NCBI GenBank assembly: GCA_965246855.1
Contig: CBDFFP010000008.1
Coordinates: 1,756-65,755 of the forward strand
Reading direction: 5' to 3'
Source of the DNA: Chitinophagaceae bacterium
GTDB lineage: Bacteria; Bacteroidota; Bacteroidia; Chitinophagales; Chitinophagaceae
DNA: 64,000 nt
A program made the translations under genes and the position numbers. Below are positions 1-61,969 of this stretch, piece after piece. The notes beneath the pieces were generated by a model. That model saw only the letters and a program-made list of their open reading frames with translations, ran no database searches and was not told the DNA's origin. Each line of letters begins with the position of its first letter. Positions within the stretch are counted from its first letter, which is position 1.

Positions 1-237
1 CCGGCCGGCGGCGGGAGGACAAGTGTAGACAAGAGGAGACGGATGCAGGCAGGTGTTGACACGGCGTGACGGTAGGCTACAAACAGCTACAGCAAGCGTT
101 TGTCGCTGAACCCCTCCCGACGAGGGGGCAGCAAATCCTACGGCCACCCTTTACGGGGTGGCCGTGGCGTTTTATGCCGTCCCGACTCCCTGGGGGCGCG
201 GTTCGCCCCAGCCGCTGACCCGGCGAACAAGTCTGAA

Positions 238-328
238 CGAGCCGTCCCCGTCAGGGGTCGGGATACCCCGGAGTCGAGTCGGGCGGAGTCTGCTCCGGGG
301 CATCCCGACCCCTGACGGGGACGGCTCG
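238..328. repeat. 91-nt near-perfect hairpin (27-bp perfect outer arms 238-264 / 302-328, plus inner arms ccccggag/ctccgggg)
   Basis: Arms read directly: cgagccgtccccgtcaggggtcgggat ... atcccgacccctgacggggacggctcg. Lies in the very GC-rich leader upstream of the ATG at 545. Confidence 0.85.
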
Positions 329-544
329 TCGGGAACCCCACGGACCGCGACTGTCAGGGGCCGGGTGACCCCGCCAGACGGAAGGCCGACACCCCGCGGG
401 CTGGTGTGCGGGTCTGACGCCCCGGCCGGCTGCTGTTCGCCCCGGCTGACACCCGCCGCCCGCTCTGCTAACATACTCCTTCGGTGTTCGCGCCCCTCCG
501 CGCCGTTGCGAGAGACCGCTTCTCCCCGCCCGAAAGCCCCCCCG

Positions 545-979
545 ATGACCCGGCGTTACGTCGACCAACTCCGCGACGGCGACACTCTGGACGACGTGTA
601 CCTCGCCACCGACAAGCAGTTGCGGGTCAACCGCAAGGGCGATTCGTTCGTCCAGGTCGATTTGCGCGACCGCACCGGTGGGTTGTCGGCGCGCATCTGG
701 AACGCCGGCGAACACCTGTTTAAGTCGTTCGACAACGGCGATTACGTCCACGTCGAGGGGAAAGTCCAGAACTTCCAGGGGGCACTCCAAGTCATCATGA
801 CCCACGTCGAGCGGGTCGAGGCCGAGAAGGTCGAGGCGGCGGACTTTCTGCCGCACACCGACCAGGACGTGCCGAAACTGCTCGACCGGCTGCGGACGTA
901 CTTACTCCGGCTGACCAACCCGCACCTGCGGGCGTTGGCCGAGGTGTTTTTGATGGACGACGCCTCTCGTGGACGATGA
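545..979 (+). CDS. OB-fold nucleic-acid-binding protein fragment: N-terminal part of a YhaM-like 3'-5' exoribonuclease/HD hydrolase, apparently 3'-truncated
   Basis: ATG at 545 gives MTRRYVDQLRDGDTLDDVYLATDKQLRVNRKGDSFVQVDLRDRTGGLSARIWN...GDYVHVEGKVQNFQGALQV, an OB-fold pattern. The frame ends ...FLMDDASRGR* where an HD domain would be expected. The 158 start in the ORF track adds an implausible Pro/Arg/Gly-rich leader. Confidence 0.55.
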   Translation: MTRRYVDQLRDGDTLDDVYLATDKQLRVNRKGDSFVQVDLRDRTGGLSARIWNAGEHLFKSFDNGDYVHVEGKVQNFQGALQVIMTHVERVEAEKVEAADFLPHTDQDVPKLLDRLRTYLLRLTNPHLRALAEVFLMDDASRGR

Positions 980-1920
980 ATGCCAAGCAGGACAGCCTTC
1001 TTATTCCGCACAACGGCCCGATGCCCATTATCATTCCCGATGCGGCGCACGTGATTGTGGGCGAGGTAACGGAGAAGAAACCGGAAGCCGAATGGATACG
1101 GCAGTTTGCGGTGGCGGGGGATTTTCTTTCCAAAACAAAAGCGTGGGAAGAAATACCTGCAACCACTTTTACGCAGCCGCTGTACGATGCCGCGATGGGG
1201 ATTTTACGGGGAAACCGCGCGCTGTTGAAAGTGGCGGTTTTGCAGGGATTGCCGGAACGAGGAGGCGCGTGGAAAAGTGCGGAACTGCGCGAGTTGTTGC
1301 GGTGGCTGGTGGGGAATGTAAAGGAAGAAATCCCGGTGCGGACGGCAGCGTTGCAGGTCTGTGGGAAATGGGATTCCGGCAAGGGAAACAGCGCGTTTTA
1401 TGCCTCGCTTCTGGGGGACAGTTCTTACTACGTGGCGGGCACGGCGCTGGGCCTTCTCTCCAAAACAGACAGCGCCGAAGCGTTGCGCGCGGCACGAAAA
1501 ATTCTGGACGAAAAAACGGCGCGCTCGCTGCTGCTTTCCAATGCCGCAGAGATTGTGGCGCAAACCGGAAAAGAGGAAGACCTCCTTCGCATTTCCGCCA
1601 ATGCCGAAGGCAAATGGGGAAGCGCCCGCCTGCCGCTCGTGGAGCCGGTGGTTTTGTTTTGGAAAGCCGATGGAACCAATGGCCGGGCCGCGCTGGCGCT
1701 GCTTCAGAAATGGCTTTTTGAGGAAGAAGCGGGCTTTATGAAGGAGCGGCATCTGGGGGAGTGGCAGGATATGGTGGTGCGGGCGCAGGAAGAAAGGGAA
1801 AATCCGTTTTGGCGGGCGAAACGGGAGGCTCTGCGGGCGTTTCTAAAGGAAGTTCAGGCGGCGGAAAAAGACGCGGCTACGGCAGAACGGATTGGGAAGA
1901 TGGCGGAGCGGGTGAAGTAG
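976..1920 (+). CDS. HEAT/ARM-like repeat protein resembling the C-terminal domain of M1-family aminopeptidases; probably a 5'-truncated gene fragment
   Basis: The translation is alpha-helical repeat-like (AAMGILRGNRALLKVAVLQGL..., VRTAALQVCGKW, YYVAGTALGLLSKTDSAEALRAARKIL). There is no catalytic N-domain, and the ORF starts exactly at the compositional junction. Confidence 0.45.
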   Translation: MNAKQDSLLIPHNGPMPIIIPDAAHVIVGEVTEKKPEAEWIRQFAVAGDFLSKTKAWEEIPATTFTQPLYDAAMGILRGNRALLKVAVLQGLPERGGAWKSAELRELLRWLVGNVKEEIPVRTAALQVCGKWDSGKGNSAFYASLLGDSSYYVAGTALGLLSKTDSAEALRAARKILDEKTARSLLLSNAAEIVAQTGKEEDLLRISANAEGKWGSARLPLVEPVVLFWKADGTNGRAALALLQKWLFEEEAGFMKERHLGEWQDMVVRAQEERENPFWRAKREALRAFLKEVQAAEKDAATAERIGKMAERVK

Positions 1921-2020
1921 GGGAGAAGTAGATTTTACGCAAGCGCAATGTTCTGTTTGTTATGCTATTACGACAACAAGACATTTTCTACATATTTTAG
2001 TGCGCTGTACCCTAATTATA

Positions 2021-2578
2021 CTACGAAAGTTGTAAACCTAAATCAGTTGGCAACCCATCAAGGCTTTTCAGGTTGTTGTCTTTCATATACTGAATTAAGC
2101 CTTCTTCGCCTTTCTTTTCGGCCCACTCAAAGTGAATGTCGCGCTCGCCGATGTAATCATAAAGCGGAACGCCAAAGCCGCAGGAGGTTTGAACCAAGTC
2201 AATCTCCGCAACGATTATCTGCCTTGTGCTGGGATAAATGGTAAATTCTTTTGCGTAAGATTCCCACGATTCGGAGCTTGGCAAAACGGTGGCTCCTTTT
2301 CCATAAAGCCGCAAAATATTGGGCTTTCCCACAAAAGAACAAAACATGAAATTTATGCGCCCGTTTTCCAGTGTGTGTGCAGAAGTTTCATTGCCGCTGC
2401 TTATCAAATCCATATAAGCCACTTTGTTGTCGTCCAGCACCCGAAAACAGTCTAAGCCTTTGGGCGAAAGATTGATTCTTCCCTCACTGCTCAGCGGCGC
2501 GGTGGCGACAAAAAAAAGATGCTGCTCGCTGATGAATTCTTTGTGTGCGGCGCTGATGGAATTGCTGAATTTGCCCAT
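2021..2578 (-). CDS. pyridoxamine 5'-phosphate oxidase family (FMN-binding split-barrel) protein
   Basis: 185 aa: HLFFVATAPLSSEGRINLSPKGLDCFRVLDDNKVAYMDLISSGNETSAHTLENGRINFMFCSF is typical of PNPOx-like proteins. Confidence 0.75.
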   Translation of the reverse strand: MGKFSNSISAAHKEFISEQHLFFVATAPLSSEGRINLSPKGLDCFRVLDDNKVAYMDLISSGNETSAHTLENGRINFMFCSFVGKPNILRLYGKGATVLPSSESWESYAKEFTIYPSTRQIIVAEIDLVQTSCGFGVPLYDYIGERDIHFEWAEKKGEEGLIQYMKDNNLKSLDGLPTDLGLQLS

Positions 2579-2697
2579 GAGGTTGAGGGGTGTTTTTTGC
2601 TAAAATTTGCGCGACAAAGATAAGCGCTTGCGCTAATAGGGAAGATTTGCATACCCAAATTTCTGTCCAATTTGCTTCCTGCTTATTTTTGCATCCT

Positions 2698-3183
2698 ATG
2701 AAAGGAAACATTTCCATCCCACCCGTTCCAGAATTCAGAGAGCACATTACCGCCGTCTTGATGATGCTGGATGGGTATTACAAAGCTGTAGAAGCAGAAG
2801 TGCTTCCGGCTACACCAAAATCGCAACGCGTTATAAACATCCTAAGCCCGGCAGATTTACAGGAGCTAAAAGACAAGTTTGACGCGGCCCCGCCCGATGA
2901 AAAAGTGCCGATGACAGCGGCCGAAGCCGTACGGCTTTCTGCCTGCTACCTGCTGTTAAGCCATTTGCTGATATCGGAAGAAGGCGAAAAGTTGTTTGCG
3001 CTGATGTATGCAATCGTACCCGACGATGGTAGTTTGGACAACCCGGGCTTCTATGATTTTCCCACAATACGAAACCGGATTCTGATTATCAACGACCACC
3101 TGATTATCAACAGTGAAGCGCAAATTAGTGACGCGGAAGGCTATGCAGAGATGAAGGCGCAAATAGCGGCCCTGATTGCGTAA
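2698..3183 (+). CDS. hypothetical protein (start chosen at the MKGNISIPP ATG)
   Basis: Long ORF with coding-like composition and no recognisable motif. Its TAA stop is followed by 75 more open codons in the same frame (see findings). Confidence 0.45.
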   Translation: MKGNISIPPVPEFREHITAVLMMLDGYYKAVEAEVLPATPKSQRVINILSPADLQELKDKFDAAPPDEKVPMTAAEAVRLSACYLLLSHLLISEEGEKLFALMYAIVPDDGSLDNPGFYDFPTIRNRILIINDHLIINSEAQISDAEGYAEMKAQIAALIA

Positions 3184-3432
3184 AGCAGACGCTTCCGGGA
3201 AAATCGCTTCTGCAAGTACGATACAAACTTAAAACTCATCTGCACCGTAGCAGGTAGCGAAGCCTATGTGGCCGCTTTGGTGGTAAAGAAGATAGCCGAT
3301 GCCGCCGCACTTGCAGGCATCAACGGCGCAGCGGAAATCAGCCGCAAGCTGGGCGAGCGTTTTGAAGGGCAAGGCGGCAGCGGTAATACCAATACCCCAA
3401 ACCCTTAATTGTTATTATTAATAAAAAGAAGT

Positions 3433-3539: not shown

Positions 3540-3780
3540 GCCAAACCAGTTTGAATAGGAAGTGGGTCTGTTTACTGCGGAGGTAAACGGGTTTGGGTAA
3601 AAAGAGAGCCCGTTCGGTTGGCATCCAAACTTGTTTGGATATTAAGGGAGCCTGTTTGGGTAAAAAGCGAACGGGTTCGGCTGGCATCCAAACGGGTTTG
3701 GCTATGAAGTGGGAGGGGGTACTTGGGAAGTGGGCACCCCCACTTGTGGTGGGAACGACCCCACTTCAGAAGTGGGGGTA
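3540..3780. repeat. tandem array A: two clear 63-bp units (starting 3591 and 3654) plus degenerate flanks and aagtggg/ccccactt motifs
   Basis: gtttgggtaaaaagagagcccgttcggttggcatccaaac recurs as gtttgggtaaaaagcgaacgggttcggctggcatccaaac exactly 63 nt later. The hairpin ccccacttcagaagtgggg sits near 3760. Confidence 0.65.
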
Positions 3781-4068
3781 ATGGGAAAATGTAGTGTTAA
3801 AATAGGTGTGTTTGGAGGAAAAGTGGGAAATGATTATTTTTATAAGAGAAGGCTTGGAGGACTTTTGGGCTAACGCAGAGGGCTTTATGCAGGTTGAGAA
3901 TTAGCATTACGTCTGCCCGAGCCGCTGGTGATTGAAAATATTTTGATGAAGTTAAGTACTAATAATCAGCGATGTTTGTCCAGTCCGAACCAATGGAAGG
4001 TTTTGCAATTTGCTGAAGTTTAGTTTGTCAAGCCCAACTTGCATAAAACCCCATGTTAGCAGCAGGAT

Positions 4069-5001
4069 TTAATGTTCGTTTTTATAGAATTCGTCCATTT
4101 GCAACATCGCTAATCTTCTAGCTTCGTCAATGGAATACTTCCCTTTTAATCTTTTGCCCTCATCAACTATTCCAATTTTATTGGAAATAATTTTCGCTAT
4201 TTTAGAAGTACCTTCTTTTATATCAAGATATCCAATTGCAGACGATAGCCCGTCTACTTTAGAATTGTCAACTCTTACTGGCAAAACATAATATCTTCCC
4301 TTTTCAATCAATAACCTTTCTAATGCAGCCTGTCTTTCATGGATAGTCCATATTTTATTAATATAAGAATTTGAAATCAACATCACACAAAATTGAGACT
4401 TTGAGCTATAAATGTCGTATAAATGTGTAACAAGATTTTTACCTAATAGTTCAGACCTTTCAAAATTATCATAAAATACTCTCAGCTTATTTTTTATGAG
4501 AAATTTGGAAATATCTTCTGCATATAATCTATCCTCTCCGGCAAAAGATAATGCAACATCATACTCATATTGCCTTAACTGCCACTCTTCGCACAAGAGT
4601 AGAATTTGTTCAAATTCGAGTCCAACATCGTAGTTTACTTTATCTTTATCTAAAACCAAATAGTGCTTCAACTTTTCATCAATTTTATCTACAAATGCTT
4701 TTGCGTTATATGTATATATAACAATAATTGCTTTTGGAAAATGTGTTCTAAGTTTTGCAATTAGTTCATATAAGCTATTCATTGCCTCATCTCCATATCC
4801 GAGAATTGAGGGATCAAGAAATACTGTATTAATTCCATTTTTTTGAATCAGAGGTTGGATTTGATCCTCCTTGTGCGTAGAAATTACTCTATGAACTGTT
4901 GGAAACGCGTTTAAATGAGCATATAGAGAATTTACACCAGCAGTTCCATGATGATGCGTTCCAAAAATTAAAACGTTCAAATAAGGTCTAAACCGTTTCA
5001 T
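4069..5001 (-). CDS. TIR domain protein with an N-terminal receiver-like (Rossmannoid) domain
   Basis: The C-terminal half, YDVALSFAGEDRLYAEDISKFLIKNKLRVFYDNFERSELLGKNLVTHLYDIYSSKSQFCVMLISNSYINKIWTIHERQAALERL, matches the bacterial TIR pattern (SFAGEDR ... W..HE). The N-terminal half has alternating beta/alpha character (VLIFGT, TVFLDPS, IIVIYTY, YLVLDKD). The gene is conspicuously AT-rich. Confidence 0.85.
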   Translation of the reverse strand: MKRFRPYLNVLIFGTHHHGTAGVNSLYAHLNAFPTVHRVISTHKEDQIQPLIQKNGINTVFLDPSILGYGDEAMNSLYELIAKLRTHFPKAIIVIYTYNAKAFVDKIDEKLKHYLVLDKDKVNYDVGLEFEQILLLCEEWQLRQYEYDVALSFAGEDRLYAEDISKFLIKNKLRVFYDNFERSELLGKNLVTHLYDIYSSKSQFCVMLISNSYINKIWTIHERQAALERLLIEKGRYYVLPVRVDNSKVDGLSSAIGYLDIKEGTSKIAKIISNKIGIVDEGKRLKGKYSIDEARRLAMLQMDEFYKNEH

Positions 5002-5326
5002 ATTTAGATATTTGTAATAATGTTTCTAGTAATAATTATTTCCCATTTAAGTTAGGGGATTTCAAAGTAGATTTGTCTTGCTGCTAATATTCTGTTTGCC
5101 GCAATTGGAGTAGCGGCAATCCGTCCATAGTCCGCAACCGCGTTTCGGCAATCATCCCAATACGGGTGTATTGCCGCTATTGAAGGTTTTTTCAGGGTTG
5201 CGCATTGCAAAACGCGCCGCAAAATACGAGCGCTCTTCCATATTTCAAAACCCCGCCCAACTTCCCAACCATTTCTCCCGTCTTTTCCTAAACTTATACT
5301 TTCGCAGCCTTTTCAGCAAACGACCT

Positions 5327-11432: not shown

Positions 11433-11475
11433 AAGTCCCTTTTCAGGAAACAAAGAATATATTCAGAATGATGCC

Positions 11476-11701
11476 GTCCCCGAAACCGGGGATGGTGCGA
11501 GTAGTCGGTTTTGTGACGTCCCCGATTTCAGGGATAGCGCAAGTAATCGGTTTTGCGGCACCCCCGATTTCAGGGACGCCTAAAATTTCAGAATTTCCTT
11601 TATCCCCAAAATCGGGGATGCCTAAAATTTCAGAACTTCCTTTATCCCCCAAACCGGGGATGCCTAAAGTTCCAGAACTTTAGGCATCCCCGGTTTGGGG
11701 G
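11476..11701. repeat. tandem array B: about five 42-bp units ending in a 27-bp perfect inverted repeat (11646-11672 / 11675-11701)
   Basis: ccccgatttcaggga recurs 42 nt apart. ggatgcctaaaatttcagaa(t/c)ttcctttatcccc also recurs 42 nt apart. The terminal hairpin is cccccaaaccggggatgcctaaagttc-ca-gaactttaggcatccccggtttggggg. Confidence 0.8.
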
Positions 11702-21576: not shown

Positions 21577-21838
21577 GTGGCGAGCCTTTTGCATCCCCAT
21601 GACGAAGGCTGTCATGAGGTAGCGAGAGTCTGTCATCATGTAGCGAGCCTTTCACTACCCTTCGGCAGCCTCTCACTACCCTTCGGCAGTCTCTCACTAC
21701 CCTTCGGCAGCCTCTCACTACCCTTCGGCAGCCTTTCACTACCCTTCGGCAGCCTTTCACTACCCTTCGGCAGCGGCTCACTACCCTTCGGCAGCGGCTC
21801 ACTACCCTTCGGCAGCGGCTCACTACCCTTCGGCAAAG
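21577..21838. repeat. tandem array C: nine near-identical 21-bp units (cactacccttcggcagcNNNt, starts 21653 to 21821) preceded by three degenerate in-phase units
   Basis: cactaccc starts at 21653, 21674, 21695, 21716, 21737, 21758, 21779, 21800 and 21821. Upstream, g(t/g)agcgag occurs at 21577, 21619 and 21640. Confidence 0.9.
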
Positions 21839-29734: not shown

Positions 29735-29935
29735 CGTCAAGCCTTCGGGAAGTCATTTCAACCCCTGCCACGGGCCGCCGAAGGTTTCGGGACGCCGTGG
29801 CCCAACGTCCATGAGCTGCTGGCGGCTTCGGGAAGTCGTGGCCCGACGTCCACGGGCCGCTGGAGGCTTCGGGGAGCCGTGGTCCAATGTCCACGAGCCG
29901 CTGGAGGCTTCGGGAAGCCATGGTATCAAATTCCA
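29735..29935. repeat. tandem array D: five units of 41-42 bp
   Basis: The anchor ttcggg occurs at 29744, 29786, 29827, 29868 and 29909. The unit resembles gtccacgggccgctggaggcttcgggaagccgtggcccaac. Confidence 0.75.
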
Positions 29936-35069: not shown

Positions 35070-35450
35070 GATGGGAGAAATTGGGGGTGAATAAAAAAAG
35101 ATGGTTCGGTTTTCCTCCTTAAAATGATTGTGCCAGCTTTAGCGGTCGGGGTGAAAAATCTTTCCACAGAACAGAAGAATGATGTTCACAAAGAGTGATT
35201 GCCATCTACCCCTTCTCCGGGCGGGAGGGTTTTCGCGCTAGGGATAGGAGCGGATATCCTTTTTGCTGCGTGGGCCTTTTTGTGCGGTGGGGCAAAAAGA
35301 TAGCAGCGGATAGCCCGGGCCGAAGGCAGCGCCCGGATCATAGGTCATAAGCCATGGGTCATGCGACTCTGTGATAAATCCTAAAGAAGCTCCACAAAAA
35401 AGCGCCGCCCGAAAACAGACGACGCTTTGTTACAAAAGACTTTCTTTTAT

Positions 35451-42386: not shown

Positions 42387-42560
42387 CTGCCCGATCATTG
42401 GGCAGCACTGCCCGACGACAAAAAAGCACTGCCCATCAATCGGGCAGTGCTGCCCATCCATCGGGCAGTGCTGCCCGACGACAAAAAAGTACTGCCCAAT
42501 CATCGGGCAGCACTGCCCAATCATCCGGCAGCACTGCCCAATGATCGGGCAGTGCTGCCG
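42387..42560. repeat. tandem array E: eight 21-bp units, each ctgccc-N9-(g/a)gcag(c/t)(a/g)
   Basis: Successive 21-mers: ctgcccgatcattgggcagca / ctgcccgacgacaaaaaagca / ctgcccatcaatcgggcagtg / ctgcccatccatcgggcagtg / ctgcccgacgacaaaaaagta / ctgcccaatcatcgggcagca / ctgcccaatcatccggcagca / ctgcccaatgatcgggcagtg. Confidence 0.9.
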
Positions 42561-55848: not shown

Positions 55849-56038
55849 GTCATTCGGAAAAGACTGCCTGTCATTTTTAAAAGTAGAAAGGTCATAACGA
55901 TAAGGAGCAAGGTCATGTTTAAAAAAAGCCCTGTCATGTTTAAAATAGAGTCTATCACGAAGAAAAGCATATCGTTCATGTTTAAAATAGAGCCTATAAC
56001 GAAGAAAAGTAGACCGGTCACTTTTAAAAGAAGAACGT
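55849..56038. repeat. tandem array F: nine AT-rich 21-bp units (gtcat-phase), the last ones paired as 42-bp units
   Basis: gtcat/gtcac/ttcat anchors at 55849, 55870, 55891, 55912, 55933, (55954), 55975 and 56017. catgtttaaaatagag.ctat.acgaagaaaag is repeated 42 nt apart. Confidence 0.8.
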
Positions 56039-61769: not shown

Positions 61770-61969
61770 CCAACCGCCGCGCCGTTGGACCCAACCGCGC
61801 GATGGTTGGGTCCAACGGCGCGGTGGTCGGGCCCAACGGCGCAGTGGTTGGGTCCGACGGCGCAGTGGTTGGATCCAACGGCGCAATGGTTGGATCCAAC
61901 GGCGCAATGGTTGGGTCCGACGGAAGCGTGGTTGGATCCAATCACGCTTCCGTTGGGCCCAACGAAGCA
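61770..61969. repeat. tandem array G: nine-plus 21-bp units (ccaacggcgcaRtggttggRt), each internally palindromic (ccaac...gttgg)
   Basis: Units read consecutively: ccaaccgccgcgccgttggac / ccaaccgcgcgatggttgggt / ccaacggcgcggtggtcgggc / ccaacggcgcagtggttgggt / ccgacggcgcagtggttggat / ccaacggcgcaatggttggat / ccaacggcgcaatggttgggt / ccgacggaagcgtggttggat / ccaatcacgcttccgttgggc. Confidence 0.9.

What the first reader, a model, noticed from the sequence alone, without database searches (positions are those of the whole stretch)
3781..5100. Low-GC single-gene islet encoding a receiver-like N-domain fused to a C-terminal TIR domain (candidate NADase-type immune effector or sensor)
The gene 4069-5001 is sharply AT-rich: sampled 60-nt lines contain 18-21 G+C, against 41 of 60 in the adjacent FG-GAP gene. 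That points to recent horizontal acquisition. Its C-terminal half carries a bacterial TIR signature (YDVALSFAGEDR...VFYD...CVMLIS..Y....W..HE). Bacterial TIR domains are established NAD+-consuming or signal-generating modules in Thoeris, TIR-STING CBASS, Pycsar and other anti-phage systems. The roughly 150-aa N-terminal domain looks like a five-strand Rossmannoid or CheY-like fold: an Asp after beta3 (VFLDPS), a Thr after beta4 (IYTY) and a Lys after beta5 (LDK), but without the acidic pair after beta1. That would make it a pseudo-receiver or ligand-sensing domain. No partner gene (SIR2/SLOG, cyclase, STING) is present, so this would be a stand-alone sensor-effector architecture. The islet lies next to tandem array A.
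Basis: partly seen in the sequence, partly recalled or inferred. Interest (0 to 1): 0.72.

Follow-up and report, generated by a model that had tools for sequence, protein, structure and literature searches.

The report
Stand-alone pseudo-receiver–TIR immune-type gene
A foreign, AT-rich single gene in a Bacteroidota genome encodes an NAD-cleaving-type TIR domain fused to a degenerate, apparently kinase-independent "receiver" switch domain from an uncatalogued family, so it is most likely a one-protein anti-phage suicide effector.

Summary
It is the only such trough in 64 kb.

Residues 146-264 are a bona fide TIR domain. Pfam TIR_2 scores 58.9 bits (cut-off 28), the closest fold is AbTir, and the WxxxE catalytic motif (W218, E222) is intact.

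Residues 1-143 match no Pfam model, but they are a divergent receiver (REC/CheY) domain:
- The AF2 model is a (βα)5 fold (pLDDT 92).
- All top Foldseek PDB hits are REC domains.
- A family profile hits solved response regulators (E 7e-5).
- Relatives give sub-threshold Response_reg matches on this same domain.

D63, T97 and probably K119 are kept. The Mg-binding acidic pair is replaced by G14-T15 within a GxHxH loop, which makes it a pseudo-receiver.

The N-domain family has about 300 clusters at 50% identity. It is mostly fused to TIR, and also to EAD11, nucleoside deoxyribosyltransferase-like, DUF4145 and, singly, CHAT or KAP domains. Twelve loci share no neighbouring gene and no kinase.

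Best reading: a stand-alone, horizontally acquired sensor-effector in which a phosphorylation-independent REC switch gates the TIR NADase. It is a new variant of known kinds (single-gene TIR defences; Detocs). Function is untested.

The parts
4069..5001 (-). Complete CDS (310 aa plus stop) of the pseudo-receiver-TIR protein
   Evidence: ORF list. A 100% identical protein, P0001, is in the public collection, and the full-length homologue P0002 (313 aa) is 51% identical. AF2 full-length model: pLDDT 81, pTM 0.82.
4573..5001 (-). N-terminal divergent REC-derived (pseudo-receiver) domain, aa 1-143: β1 8-13, α1 21-32, β2 36-42, α2 45-55, β3 59-62, α3 70-87, β4 92-97, α4 100-106, β5 115-118, α5 128-142
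   Evidence: No Pfam hit. AF2 model pLDDT 92.3. Foldseek PDB top hits are all REC/CheY-like: RcsB, 3cu5, ComE, TadZ, HupR, FrzS, E from 8e-5. The family profile against PDB sequences gives response regulators, 2qxy E 6.7e-5. hhalign against canonical REC: 94.8% probability.
4945..4962 (-). GTHHHG loop (aa 14-19) after β1, which replaces the Mg-binding acidic pair (CheY D12/D13) of true receivers
   Evidence: hhalign maps G14 and T15 onto CheY D12 and D13. In the family, this column is D in 26/71 and G in 22/71 sequences. The GxHxH(x)GAG form is shared by the closest relatives P0002-P0006 and P0009. Coordinates verified.
4813..4815 (-). D63, the equivalent of the receiver phospho-acceptor Asp, within the family signature N58-T59-x-F-x-D63-P64
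   Evidence: hhalign aligns D63 with CheY D57. D is present in 54/71 and P64 in 63/71 family members.
4210..4566 (-). TIR domain (aa 146-264)
   Evidence: Pfam TIR_2, 58.9 bits, E 9.1e-16. phmmer matches solved TIRs 7uxr, L7, Roq1 and AbTir. Foldseek: AbTir 7uxu, TM (target) 0.81, rmsd 2.9.
4336..4350 (-). WxxxE catalytic motif (W218-T-I-H-E222) of the TIR αC region
   Evidence: E222 aligns with the catalytic Glu of the plant TIRs L7 and Roq1 and with the Glu of 7uxr's WTEYE motif. W218 and E222 are invariant in 16 relatives. The roles of the equivalent AbTir W204 and E208 come from 10.1101/2022.05.07.491051. Coordinates verified.
4072..4209 (-). C-terminal tail (aa 265-310): helix, short strand, long helix. 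Only the closest homologue P0002 shares it.
   Evidence: Alignment A1. AF2 secondary structure H265-276, E277-280, H291-309. Some relatives carry a SUKH/SMI1_KNR4 domain at this position instead.
3750..5100 (.). Low-GC islet that contains the gene
   Evidence: Composition profile. Tiles under 0.42 GC occur only here in the 64 kb.
4039..4067 (.). Left arm of an imperfect inverted repeat that brackets the CDS (partner arm 5076-5104). Significance uncertain.
   Evidence: the repeat finder I1: 29 nt, 72% complementary. 21/29 matches exceeded all 300 shuffles of the 120-nt flanks (maximum 20), but the arm length was chosen after seeing the repeat.
5076..5104 (.). Right arm of the same imperfect inverted repeat

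Best explanation
The gene encodes a stand-alone, horizontally acquired sensor-effector of the bacterial conflict or anti-phage type.

Shown:
- The C-terminal TIR domain has everything sequence can show of an NAD+-cleaving TIR: the fold, the WxxxE Trp and the catalytic Glu.
- The N-terminal domain descends from two-component receiver domains. It has lost the Mg-binding acidic pair, so it is a pseudo-receiver, and no kinase accompanies it.

Inferred:
- The N-domain no longer works by phosphotransfer. It acts as the regulatory switch.
- In the resting state it holds the TIR domain monomeric or occluded.
- A trigger, either a phage protein or a small ligand or metal bound at the remodelled pocket (H16/H18 loop plus D63), flips it into a REC-like dimerising or oligomerising state.
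- TIR domains then assemble head-to-tail into composite active sites, as in AbTir and SARM1, and hydrolyse or cyclise NAD+.
- The infected cell is arrested (abortive infection).

No partner protein is needed.
For: TIR domain: Pfam TIR_2 is above its cut-off. W218 and E222 are conserved and align to catalytic residues of solved TIRs. The fold is closest to AbTir.

REC ancestry of the N-domain:
- The family profile hits solved response regulators.
- All top Foldseek hits of the pLDDT-92 model are REC domains. In the viral library too, most top hits are response regulators or histidine kinases.
- hhalign gives 94.8% probability.
- Relatives P0234 and P0239 give sub-threshold Pfam Response_reg matches on exactly this domain.

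Loss of phosphochemistry: G14 and T15 sit at the acidic-pair positions. By the definition in PMC12632262, that makes it a pseudo-receiver.

Module behaviour typical of conflict systems:
- The N-domain family has 301 representatives at E <= 1e-3.
- It is fused mainly to TIR (66/145), and also to EAD11, Nuc_deoxyrib_tr, DUF4145 and HTH, singly to CHAT and KAP NTPase, and as TIR+SUKH.
- Homologues sit in a defence island (Vsr/Z1/DUF4420/HATPase_c_3/Dcm/HNH/transposase), near an integrase, next to IS200 and next to a DUF4258 gene followed by a small ORF.

Stand-alone status: neighbours within about 7 kb are housekeeping genes. No protein family is shared among the ±5-kb flanks of 12 loci.

Foreign origin: GC 0.316 against 0.535, GC3 0.24. 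In 6 of 8 homologous loci the gene is also GC-poorer than its surroundings.
Against: - No activity, phenotype or trigger was tested. 'Defence' rests on domain identity and on context in a minority of loci.
- In this window, and in two other loci, the gene sits among housekeeping genes, not in a defence island.
- The only PADLOC match is to the TIR part of the candidate system PDC-S66.
- D63, T97 and K119 are retained, so residual phosphorylation or phosphomimetic ligand binding cannot be excluded.
- The most conserved N-domain residues (N58, R85, P89, R110, H113, Y114, C137) lie, from their positions in the predicted secondary structure, mostly on the face opposite the receiver active site. 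Their role is unexplained.
- Autoinhibition and REC-driven oligomerisation are analogy only.
Confidence: 0.55

Rival explanations
1. Detocs-like phosphorelay effector. The protein would be an orphan response regulator whose REC domain is phosphorylated at D63 by an unlinked histidine kinase, and phosphorylation would switch on the TIR NADase.
For: D63, T97 and possibly K119 occupy the receiver D, T and K positions. About a third of family members keep an Asp after β1. Detocs shows that REC-effector fusions can be anti-phage systems and that the effector domain is swappable (10.1101/2023.01.24.525353).
Against: Both acidic-pair positions are G14 and T15, so Mg-dependent phosphotransfer is not expected (definition in PMC12632262). 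No histidine kinase or buffer REC lies within about 7 kb. No neighbour is shared across 12 loci. Kaur et al. 2020 likewise found receiver domains among conflict-system effectors without kinases. The near-invariant P64 directly after the Asp is not, to my knowledge, usual in canonical receivers.
Confidence: 0.12
2. The N-domain is not a passive switch. It would be a neo-functionalised small-molecule or metal-binding module, or even a catalytic one (compare cREC). It would either sense a nucleotide or metal signal at the HxH-plus-Asp pocket or process the ADPR-derived product of its own TIR domain.
For: The family has its own near-invariant polar residues that receivers do not share: N58, R85, R110, H113 and C137. 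The subclade-specific GxHxH loop sits beside D63. There is precedent for a REC-derived domain predicted to process ADPr cyclic phosphate (cREC, PMC9503650).
Against: Structurally the domain is much nearer canonical REC (E about 1e-4, TM 0.6-0.7) than the annotated cREC protein (rank 48, E 0.057, TM 0.42). There are no PHROG hits. The HxH loop has low model confidence and is not conserved across the whole family. The domain is also fused to non-NAD effectors such as EAD11, CHAT and KAP, which favours a generic regulatory role.
Confidence: 0.15
3. The gene has no immune role. The TIR protein would serve host physiology or interbacterial or host interaction (NAD-derived signalling, NAD-RNA decapping or protein scaffolding), or it is a drifting foreign gene with no current role.
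For: The genes around it in the window are housekeeping, apart from weak PADLOC matches I did not locate. Bacterial TIRs also show NAD-RNA decapping (title of PMC10937652). In three loci the gene sits among metabolic genes.
Against: The reading frame is intact and the catalytic and family-signature residues are conserved at 35-51% identity to relatives, which implies purifying selection. The distribution is sporadic and GC-discordant, and some copies lie next to mobile elements or in a defence island. Fusions to EAD11, SUKH and CHAT are typical of conflict systems (PMC7159879).
Confidence: 0.12

Closest known systems
Single-protein bacterial TIR NADase effectors (AbTir/BtTir-type TIR proteins; SpbK of Bacillus subtilis)
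   Same: A one-gene architecture: an N-terminal non-catalytic domain followed by a C-terminal TIR with the WxxxE Trp and Glu. The predicted TIR fold is closest to AbTir and the best solved-sequence match is 7uxr. SpbK is a stand-alone TIR abortive-infection NADase triggered by a phage protein (abstract of PMC12847820).
   Different: The N-terminal domain here is a REC-derived pseudo-receiver. No homology to SpbK was tested. Activity and trigger are unknown.
Detocs (DtcA kinase / DtcB buffer receiver / DtcC receiver-effector)
   Same: A receiver-fold domain is fused N-terminally to a nucleotide-degrading immune effector, and the effector domain is swappable.
   Different: Detocs is a three-gene operon that depends on His-to-Asp phosphotransfer. 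Here there is no kinase and no buffer receiver, the acidic pair is lost, the effector is TIR rather than PNP, and no PADLOC model other than PDC-S66, RT-TIR and Cas11 matched.
Bacterial pseudo-receiver (PsR) domains / atypical response regulators
   Same: [quoted passage not shown] The FrzS and TadZ atypical receivers are among the structural hits.
   Different: PsRs as defined are recognised by Pfam PF00072. This domain falls below that model. It has its own signature (NT-x-F-x-DP, R85, P89, R110, HY, C137). It is coupled to TIR, EAD and other conflict-type domains rather than DNA-binding outputs.
PADLOC candidate system PDC-S66 (single gene)
   Same: It is the best defence-database match (E 1.4e-12), and its profile is of similar size (282 positions) with the TIR in the C-terminal half.
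   Different: Only residues 142-242 match, to profile positions 144-240. The N-terminal halves do not align. TIR proteins that lack the N-domain (P0014, P0084) match equally well.
Thoeris ThsB
   Same: It is a TIR protein. Nine of 16 relatives show weak ThsB-model similarity.
   Different: No ThsA (SIR2/Macro-SLOG) gene lies nearby. The window protein itself has no ThsB hit at E <= 10.
cREC (catalytic receiver-like domain predicted to process ADPr cyclic phosphate)
   Same: It is a receiver-derived domain working in an NAD/ADPR context without a kinase.
   Different: The structural match is weak (rank 48, E 0.057). cREC is mainly phage-borne, whereas this family gave no PHROG hit, and the viral-contig matches covered the TIR only.

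Membership tests
TIR domain (Pfam PF13676 TIR_2) | Profile match above the curated gathering score | tested here: met
   58.9 bits against 28, E 9.1e-16, aa 149-264
TIR domain (Pfam PF13676 TIR_2) | Flavodoxin-like TIR fold superposable on solved TIR domains | tested here: met
   Foldseek of the full-length model: AbTir 7uxu, TM (target) 0.81, rmsd 2.9; also MAL, MyD88, SPARTA and plant TIRs
Enzymatic (NADase) TIRs | Catalytic Glu, plus the aromatic residue four positions upstream (WxxxE) | tested here: met
   W218 and E222. E222 aligns with the catalytic Glu of L7 and Roq1 and with the WTEYE motif of 7uxr. Both residues are invariant in 16 relatives.
Enzymatic (NADase) TIRs | NAD+ hydrolase or cyclase activity | not testable with these tools
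   Requires biochemistry
Canonical receiver domain (Pfam PF00072 Response_reg) | Profile match above the gathering score | tested here: not met
   No hit for the window protein even at E <= 10 and none among 14 close N-domains. The best relative reaches 25.7 bits against a cut-off of 30.2.
Canonical receiver domain (Pfam PF00072 Response_reg) | (βα)5 CheY-like fold | tested here: met
   AF2 pLDDT 92.3 with β-α order 1-5. All top PDB hits are REC domains. Profile against PDB, E 6.7e-5. hhalign 94.8%.
Canonical receiver domain (Pfam PF00072 Response_reg) | Acidic pair after β1 (CheY D12/D13) for Mg2+ binding | tested here: not met
   G14 and T15 occupy these columns. The family column is D in only 26/71 sequences.
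Canonical receiver domain (Pfam PF00072 Response_reg) | Phospho-acceptor Asp at the end of β3 | tested here: met
   D63 aligns with CheY D57. D is present in 54/71 family members.
Canonical receiver domain (Pfam PF00072 Response_reg) | Thr/Ser at the end of β4 and Lys after β5 | tested here: inconclusive
   T97 aligns with T87 by hhalign, but HMMER puts Y96 there, and T/S is present in only 26/71 sequences. K119 aligns with K109 only in the low-confidence global alignment, with a 2-residue insertion; K is present in 35/71.
Two-component system / Detocs | Genetically linked histidine kinase (and, for Detocs, a buffer receiver) | tested here: not met
   Neighbours within about 7 kb are PNPOx, FG-GAP/T9SS, RfbC, DegT, KdtA and TK. 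Nothing is shared in the ±5-kb flanks of 12 loci.
Thoeris | ThsB TIR gene adjacent to a ThsA (SIR2 or Macro-SLOG) gene | tested here: not met
   No such neighbour. No ThsB hit for this protein.
PADLOC PDC-S66 | Full-length match to the system's single-gene profile | tested here: not met
   Only the TIR part aligns (aa 142-242 to profile positions 144-240 of 282). Proteins without the N-domain match as well.
cREC | Closest structural or sequence relationship to cyclic-phosphate-processing receiver proteins; phage or RNA-repair context | tested here: not met
   BFVD rank 48, E 0.057, TM 0.42. No PHROG hit. The context is not RNA repair.

The most novel reading that the evidence does not exclude
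The N-domain would define an uncatalogued, kinase-independent branch of the receiver superfamily. This branch has been recruited repeatedly as the ON/OFF module of prokaryotic immune effectors (TIR, EAD11-linked, deoxyribosyltransferase-like, CHAT, KAP). In the window's subclade, the former phospho-acceptor pocket has been rebuilt as a His-x-His-plus-Asp site that directly senses a metal, a nucleotide or a phage protein. A two-component 'switch' fold would then have been converted into a self-contained pathogen sensor that gates a TIR NADase.
Probability: 0.25. Interest if true: 0.7.

Novelty: new variant of a known kind. Interest (0 to 1): 0.5.

Why it matters
TIR NADases and receiver-effector fusions (Detocs) are both established immune themes. 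How stand-alone TIR proteins sense infection is still mostly unknown, and how pseudo-receivers are switched without phosphorylation is called a mystery in the field's own review (PMC12632262).

This family is compact and soluble, about 300 aa, with roughly 300 clusters at 50% identity and no Pfam model for its N-domain. It joins the two questions in one polypeptide. An easily scored output (NAD+ loss, toxicity, phage resistance) could be used to find what flips a pseudo-receiver.

The family would also add a model to defence-annotation databases, which at present recognise only its TIR half.

Tried and rejected
- Exact-sequence contig look-up of the window protein and of its identical twin P0001 returned nothing. 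The source genome and strain-level comparisons were therefore unavailable.
- I spent the single genome-contig scan on the adjacent FG-GAP gene, hoping to find orthologous 'empty sites'. The best hit was only 36% identical (Taishania), with no synteny, so the presence/absence test failed.
- A scan of JGI metagenomes with the three closest N-domains found no relatives.
- Viral contigs contained only TIR-only relatives.
- PHROGs gave nothing for the N-domain.
- The cREC identity of the N-domain was considered and rejected.
- Membership of PDC-S66, ThsB or retron-TIR was rejected, because only the TIR part matches.
- Searches for a conserved partner found none: tblastn of the window neighbours against 19 homologue loci, and all-against-all blastp of the ±5-kb flanks of 12 loci.
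- There is no tRNA integration site in the window, and no terminator-like site in the islet.
- Full-text searches for 'REC-TIR', 'TIR-REC' and 'receiver-TIR' found no paper describing this architecture. The library is incomplete, so this is weak evidence of novelty.
The conclusion does not rest on them alone.
Full report
**1. What is there**

The minus-strand ORF 4069-5001 (ATG start, 310 aa) is intact. An identical protein exists once in the public protein collection (P0001), on a 93.6-kb contig. Its contig could not be retrieved.

The gene is 31.6% GC, against 53.5% for the 64-kb window (933-nt tiles: sd 3.9%, z = -5.5). No other part of the window falls below 42%. Third-position GC is 24%, against 60-68% in the neighbouring FG-GAP, rfbC and degT genes. 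The trough spans about 3750-5100.

The genes at 2021-3183 are mildly GC-poor too (46-47%). The islet may therefore be the extreme part of a roughly 3-kb variable stretch.

A Flavo-1 RNA and a T9SS sorting domain on the neighbouring FG-GAP protein place the host in the Bacteroidota.

**2. The C-terminal half is a TIR domain with catalytic residues**

- Pfam TIR_2 matches residues 149-264 at 58.9 bits (cut-off 28).
- phmmer finds solved bacterial and plant TIRs: 7uxr, L7, Roq1 and AbTir.
- The AF2 full-length model (pLDDT 81, pTM 0.82) superposes best on the AbTir TIR domain (TM 0.81 on the target, rmsd 2.9 Å).
- The motif W218-T-I-H-E222 is a WxxxE motif. E222 aligns with the catalytic Glu of L7 and Roq1. 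W218 and E222 are invariant in 16 relatives.
- In AbTir the equivalent E208 is essential for NADase activity. The equivalent W204 is needed for ADPR cyclisation (10.1101/2022.05.07.491051).

By sequence the domain therefore looks like a competent NAD+-cleaving TIR, possibly a cyclising one. Activity itself was not testable.

**3. The N-terminal half is a divergent, degenerate receiver domain**

Residues 1-143 match no Pfam, NCBIfam or PADLOC model.

A profile of 14 N-domains, searched against 1.84 billion cluster representatives, found 301 proteins at E <= 1e-3 and 175 at E <= 1e-10. This is a real family of moderate size.

With a 71-sequence alignment, AF2 gives a pLDDT-92 model with strict β1α1-β5α5 order. 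Four lines of evidence tie it to receivers:

- Foldseek against the PDB returns only CheY-like domains at the top. These are RcsB, an AraC-type response regulator (3cu5), ComE, AraT, TadZ, HupR, KdpE, DesR, Spo0A and FrzS, plus the CheY-like wing of AdiA/LdcF. E-values run from 8e-5 to 3e-3, with TM 0.55-0.71. In the viral structure library too, most top matches are response regulators or histidine kinases.
- The family profile hits solved response regulators by sequence alone (2qxy E 6.7e-5, 4e7o, 4hye, HupR, NtrC1).
- hhalign against seven canonical receivers gives 94.8% probability.
- Two relatives (P0234, P0239) give sub-threshold Pfam Response_reg matches that lie exactly on this domain (25.7 bits against a cut-off of 30.2).

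The alignments map the receiver catalytic positions as follows:

| CheY position | Window residue | Basis |
|---|---|---|
| D12/D13 (acidic pair) | G14/T15 | hhalign |
| D57 (phospho-acceptor) | D63 | hhalign |
| T87 | T97 | hhalign; HMMER shifts it by one |
| K109 | K119 | low-confidence global alignment only, with a two-residue insertion |

By the published definition, a receiver lacking any of the five catalytic residues is a pseudo-receiver (PMC12632262). This domain qualifies.

The family has its own near-invariant signature: N58-T59, D63-P64, R85, P89, R110, H113-Y114, L117 and C137. In the window's subclade the β1-α1 loop reads G-x-H-x-H-(x)-G-A-G.

**4. Family behaviour and context**

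Of 145 family representatives, 66 carry TIR_2. Others carry EAD11 (6), nucleoside 2-deoxyribosyltransferase-like (5), DUF4145 (3) or HTH domains, and single representatives carry CHAT or KAP NTPase. Some have TIR followed by a SUKH/SMI1_KNR4 domain.

EADs are adaptor domains of NTP-dependent conflict systems. The paper that describes those systems noted receiver domains among effectors with no histidine kinases (PMC7159879).

Genomic contexts of full-length homologues differ completely from one another:

- a defence island with Vsr, Z1, DUF4420, HATPase_c_3, Dcm, HNH and a transposase;
- a locus near an integrase;
- a locus next to IS200;
- a locus next to a DUF4258 gene followed by a small ORF;
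- loci among metabolic genes.

No protein family recurs in the ±5-kb flanks of 12 loci. None of the window's neighbours recurs either. In the window itself the neighbours are PNPOx, an unknown ORF, FG-GAP/T9SS, RfbC, DegT, KdtA and TK. The rest of the 64 kb looks mostly housekeeping among the families shown (panB, PhoH, MutS and others).

In six of eight homologous loci the gene is GC-poorer than its surroundings.

Together these results support a mobile, self-sufficient, single-gene module.

**5. Mechanism**

Shown:
- a two-domain protein with a TIR that looks catalytically competent by sequence;
- a REC-derived N-domain lacking the metal-binding acidic pair;
- no linked kinase or partner;
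- foreign composition.

Inferred, by analogy with AbTir/SARM1 assembly-dependent catalysis and with receiver dimerisation:
- The pseudo-receiver is the switch that keeps the TIR inactive until a trigger promotes oligomerisation.
- NAD+ depletion, or production of a cADPR isomer, then follows.
- With no ThsA-like receptor present, NAD+ depletion and abortive infection is the simplest output.

I put about 0.55 on this overall picture. The domain assignments alone deserve more than 0.9. The specific trigger and autoinhibition model deserves much less.

Rivals:
- Phosphorelay control by an unlinked kinase, Detocs-like (0.12). This is disfavoured by the missing acidic pair and the absence of any linked kinase.
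- A ligand-binding, metal-binding or catalytic N-domain at the HxH-plus-Asp site, cREC-like (0.15). cREC itself is structurally distant.
- A non-immune or vestigial role (0.12).

**6. Comparison with the known, and novelty**

The protein works like single-gene TIR defences (SpbK, AbTir-type proteins). Architecturally it resembles DtcC of Detocs, which is a receiver fused to a nucleotide-degrading effector. It fails the defining features of Detocs: no kinase, no buffer receiver and no acidic pair. It also fails those of:

- Thoeris (no ThsA);
- PDC-S66 (only the TIR part aligns);
- canonical receivers (below the Pfam threshold, acidic pair lost).

Full-text searches for REC-TIR-type terms found no description of the architecture. 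The library is incomplete.

I rate it a new variant of a known kind. It is a sound, well-supported candidate with an unannotated regulatory domain, but not a categorical surprise.

**7. Limits**

- No experiment was possible.
- No close relatives of the host locus were found, so recent acquisition rests on composition only.
- Model coordinates could not be inspected.
- The imperfect 29-nt inverted repeat bracketing the CDS (4039-4067 and 5076-5104) beat all 300 shuffles. It was tested post hoc and is only a lead.

Noticed in passing
window 1-980: The first ~950 bases are 63-73% GC, against about 54% for the rest of the window. They end in an ORF (545-979, +) that resembles, from memory and untested, the N-terminal part of a YhaM-like exoribonuclease, and whose stop overlaps the start of the next ORF (976-1920). 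This could be an assembly chimera or a junction with foreign DNA.
   Followed up: no
window 3591-3776, 11475-11680, 21646-21835, 29768-29923, 42387-42559, 55870-56029, 61784-61964: The window holds many tandem arrays, mostly between genes, with periods of about 21, 42 or 63 nt but unrelated unit sequences. 'Tandem array A' beside the TIR gene is one of these arrays rather than a feature of the islet. The shared 21-nt periodicity is unexplained.
   Followed up: partly
window 4039-4067 and 5076-5104: An imperfect 29-nt inverted repeat (21/29 complementary) brackets the TIR CDS almost exactly. A second pair lies at 3821-3845 and 5024-5048 (80% complementary). The first pair exceeded all 300 flank shuffles, but the test was post hoc. 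These may be cassette or MITE-like ends.
   Followed up: partly
window 1950-3300: The PNPOx-like gene (2021-2578, GC 0.46) and the unknown ORF 2590-3183 (GC 0.47, no Pfam hit) are also below the window's GC. The variable region may therefore extend left of the TIR islet.
   Followed up: partly
window, position not determined: A PADLOC scan of 52 window ORFs gave matches to the two-gene candidate system PDC-M66A/B (E 2e-23 and 3e-11), to mad3 (E 1e-30) and to mad8. A DUF3037 protein is also present. The tool output does not say which ORFs matched, so these could be a second candidate defence locus or generic ATPase or helicase similarity.
   Followed up: no
window 35230-35324 (+): A Flavo-1 sRNA (Rfam RF01705, 48.5 bits) is present. 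It is consistent with a Bacteroidota host.
   Followed up: no
L107 2581-4122: A 513-aa relative has three domains: pseudo-receiver, TIR and a C-terminal SUKH (SMI1_KNR4) domain. It lies next to an IS200 transposase. In some family members the C-terminal extension, not the N-domain, may be the protein-binding sensor.
   Followed up: partly
L002 15509-16375: In the locus of homologue P0010, a second, unrelated TIR-domain gene (288 aa) lies about 4.5 kb downstream of the pseudo-receiver-TIR gene.
   Followed up: no
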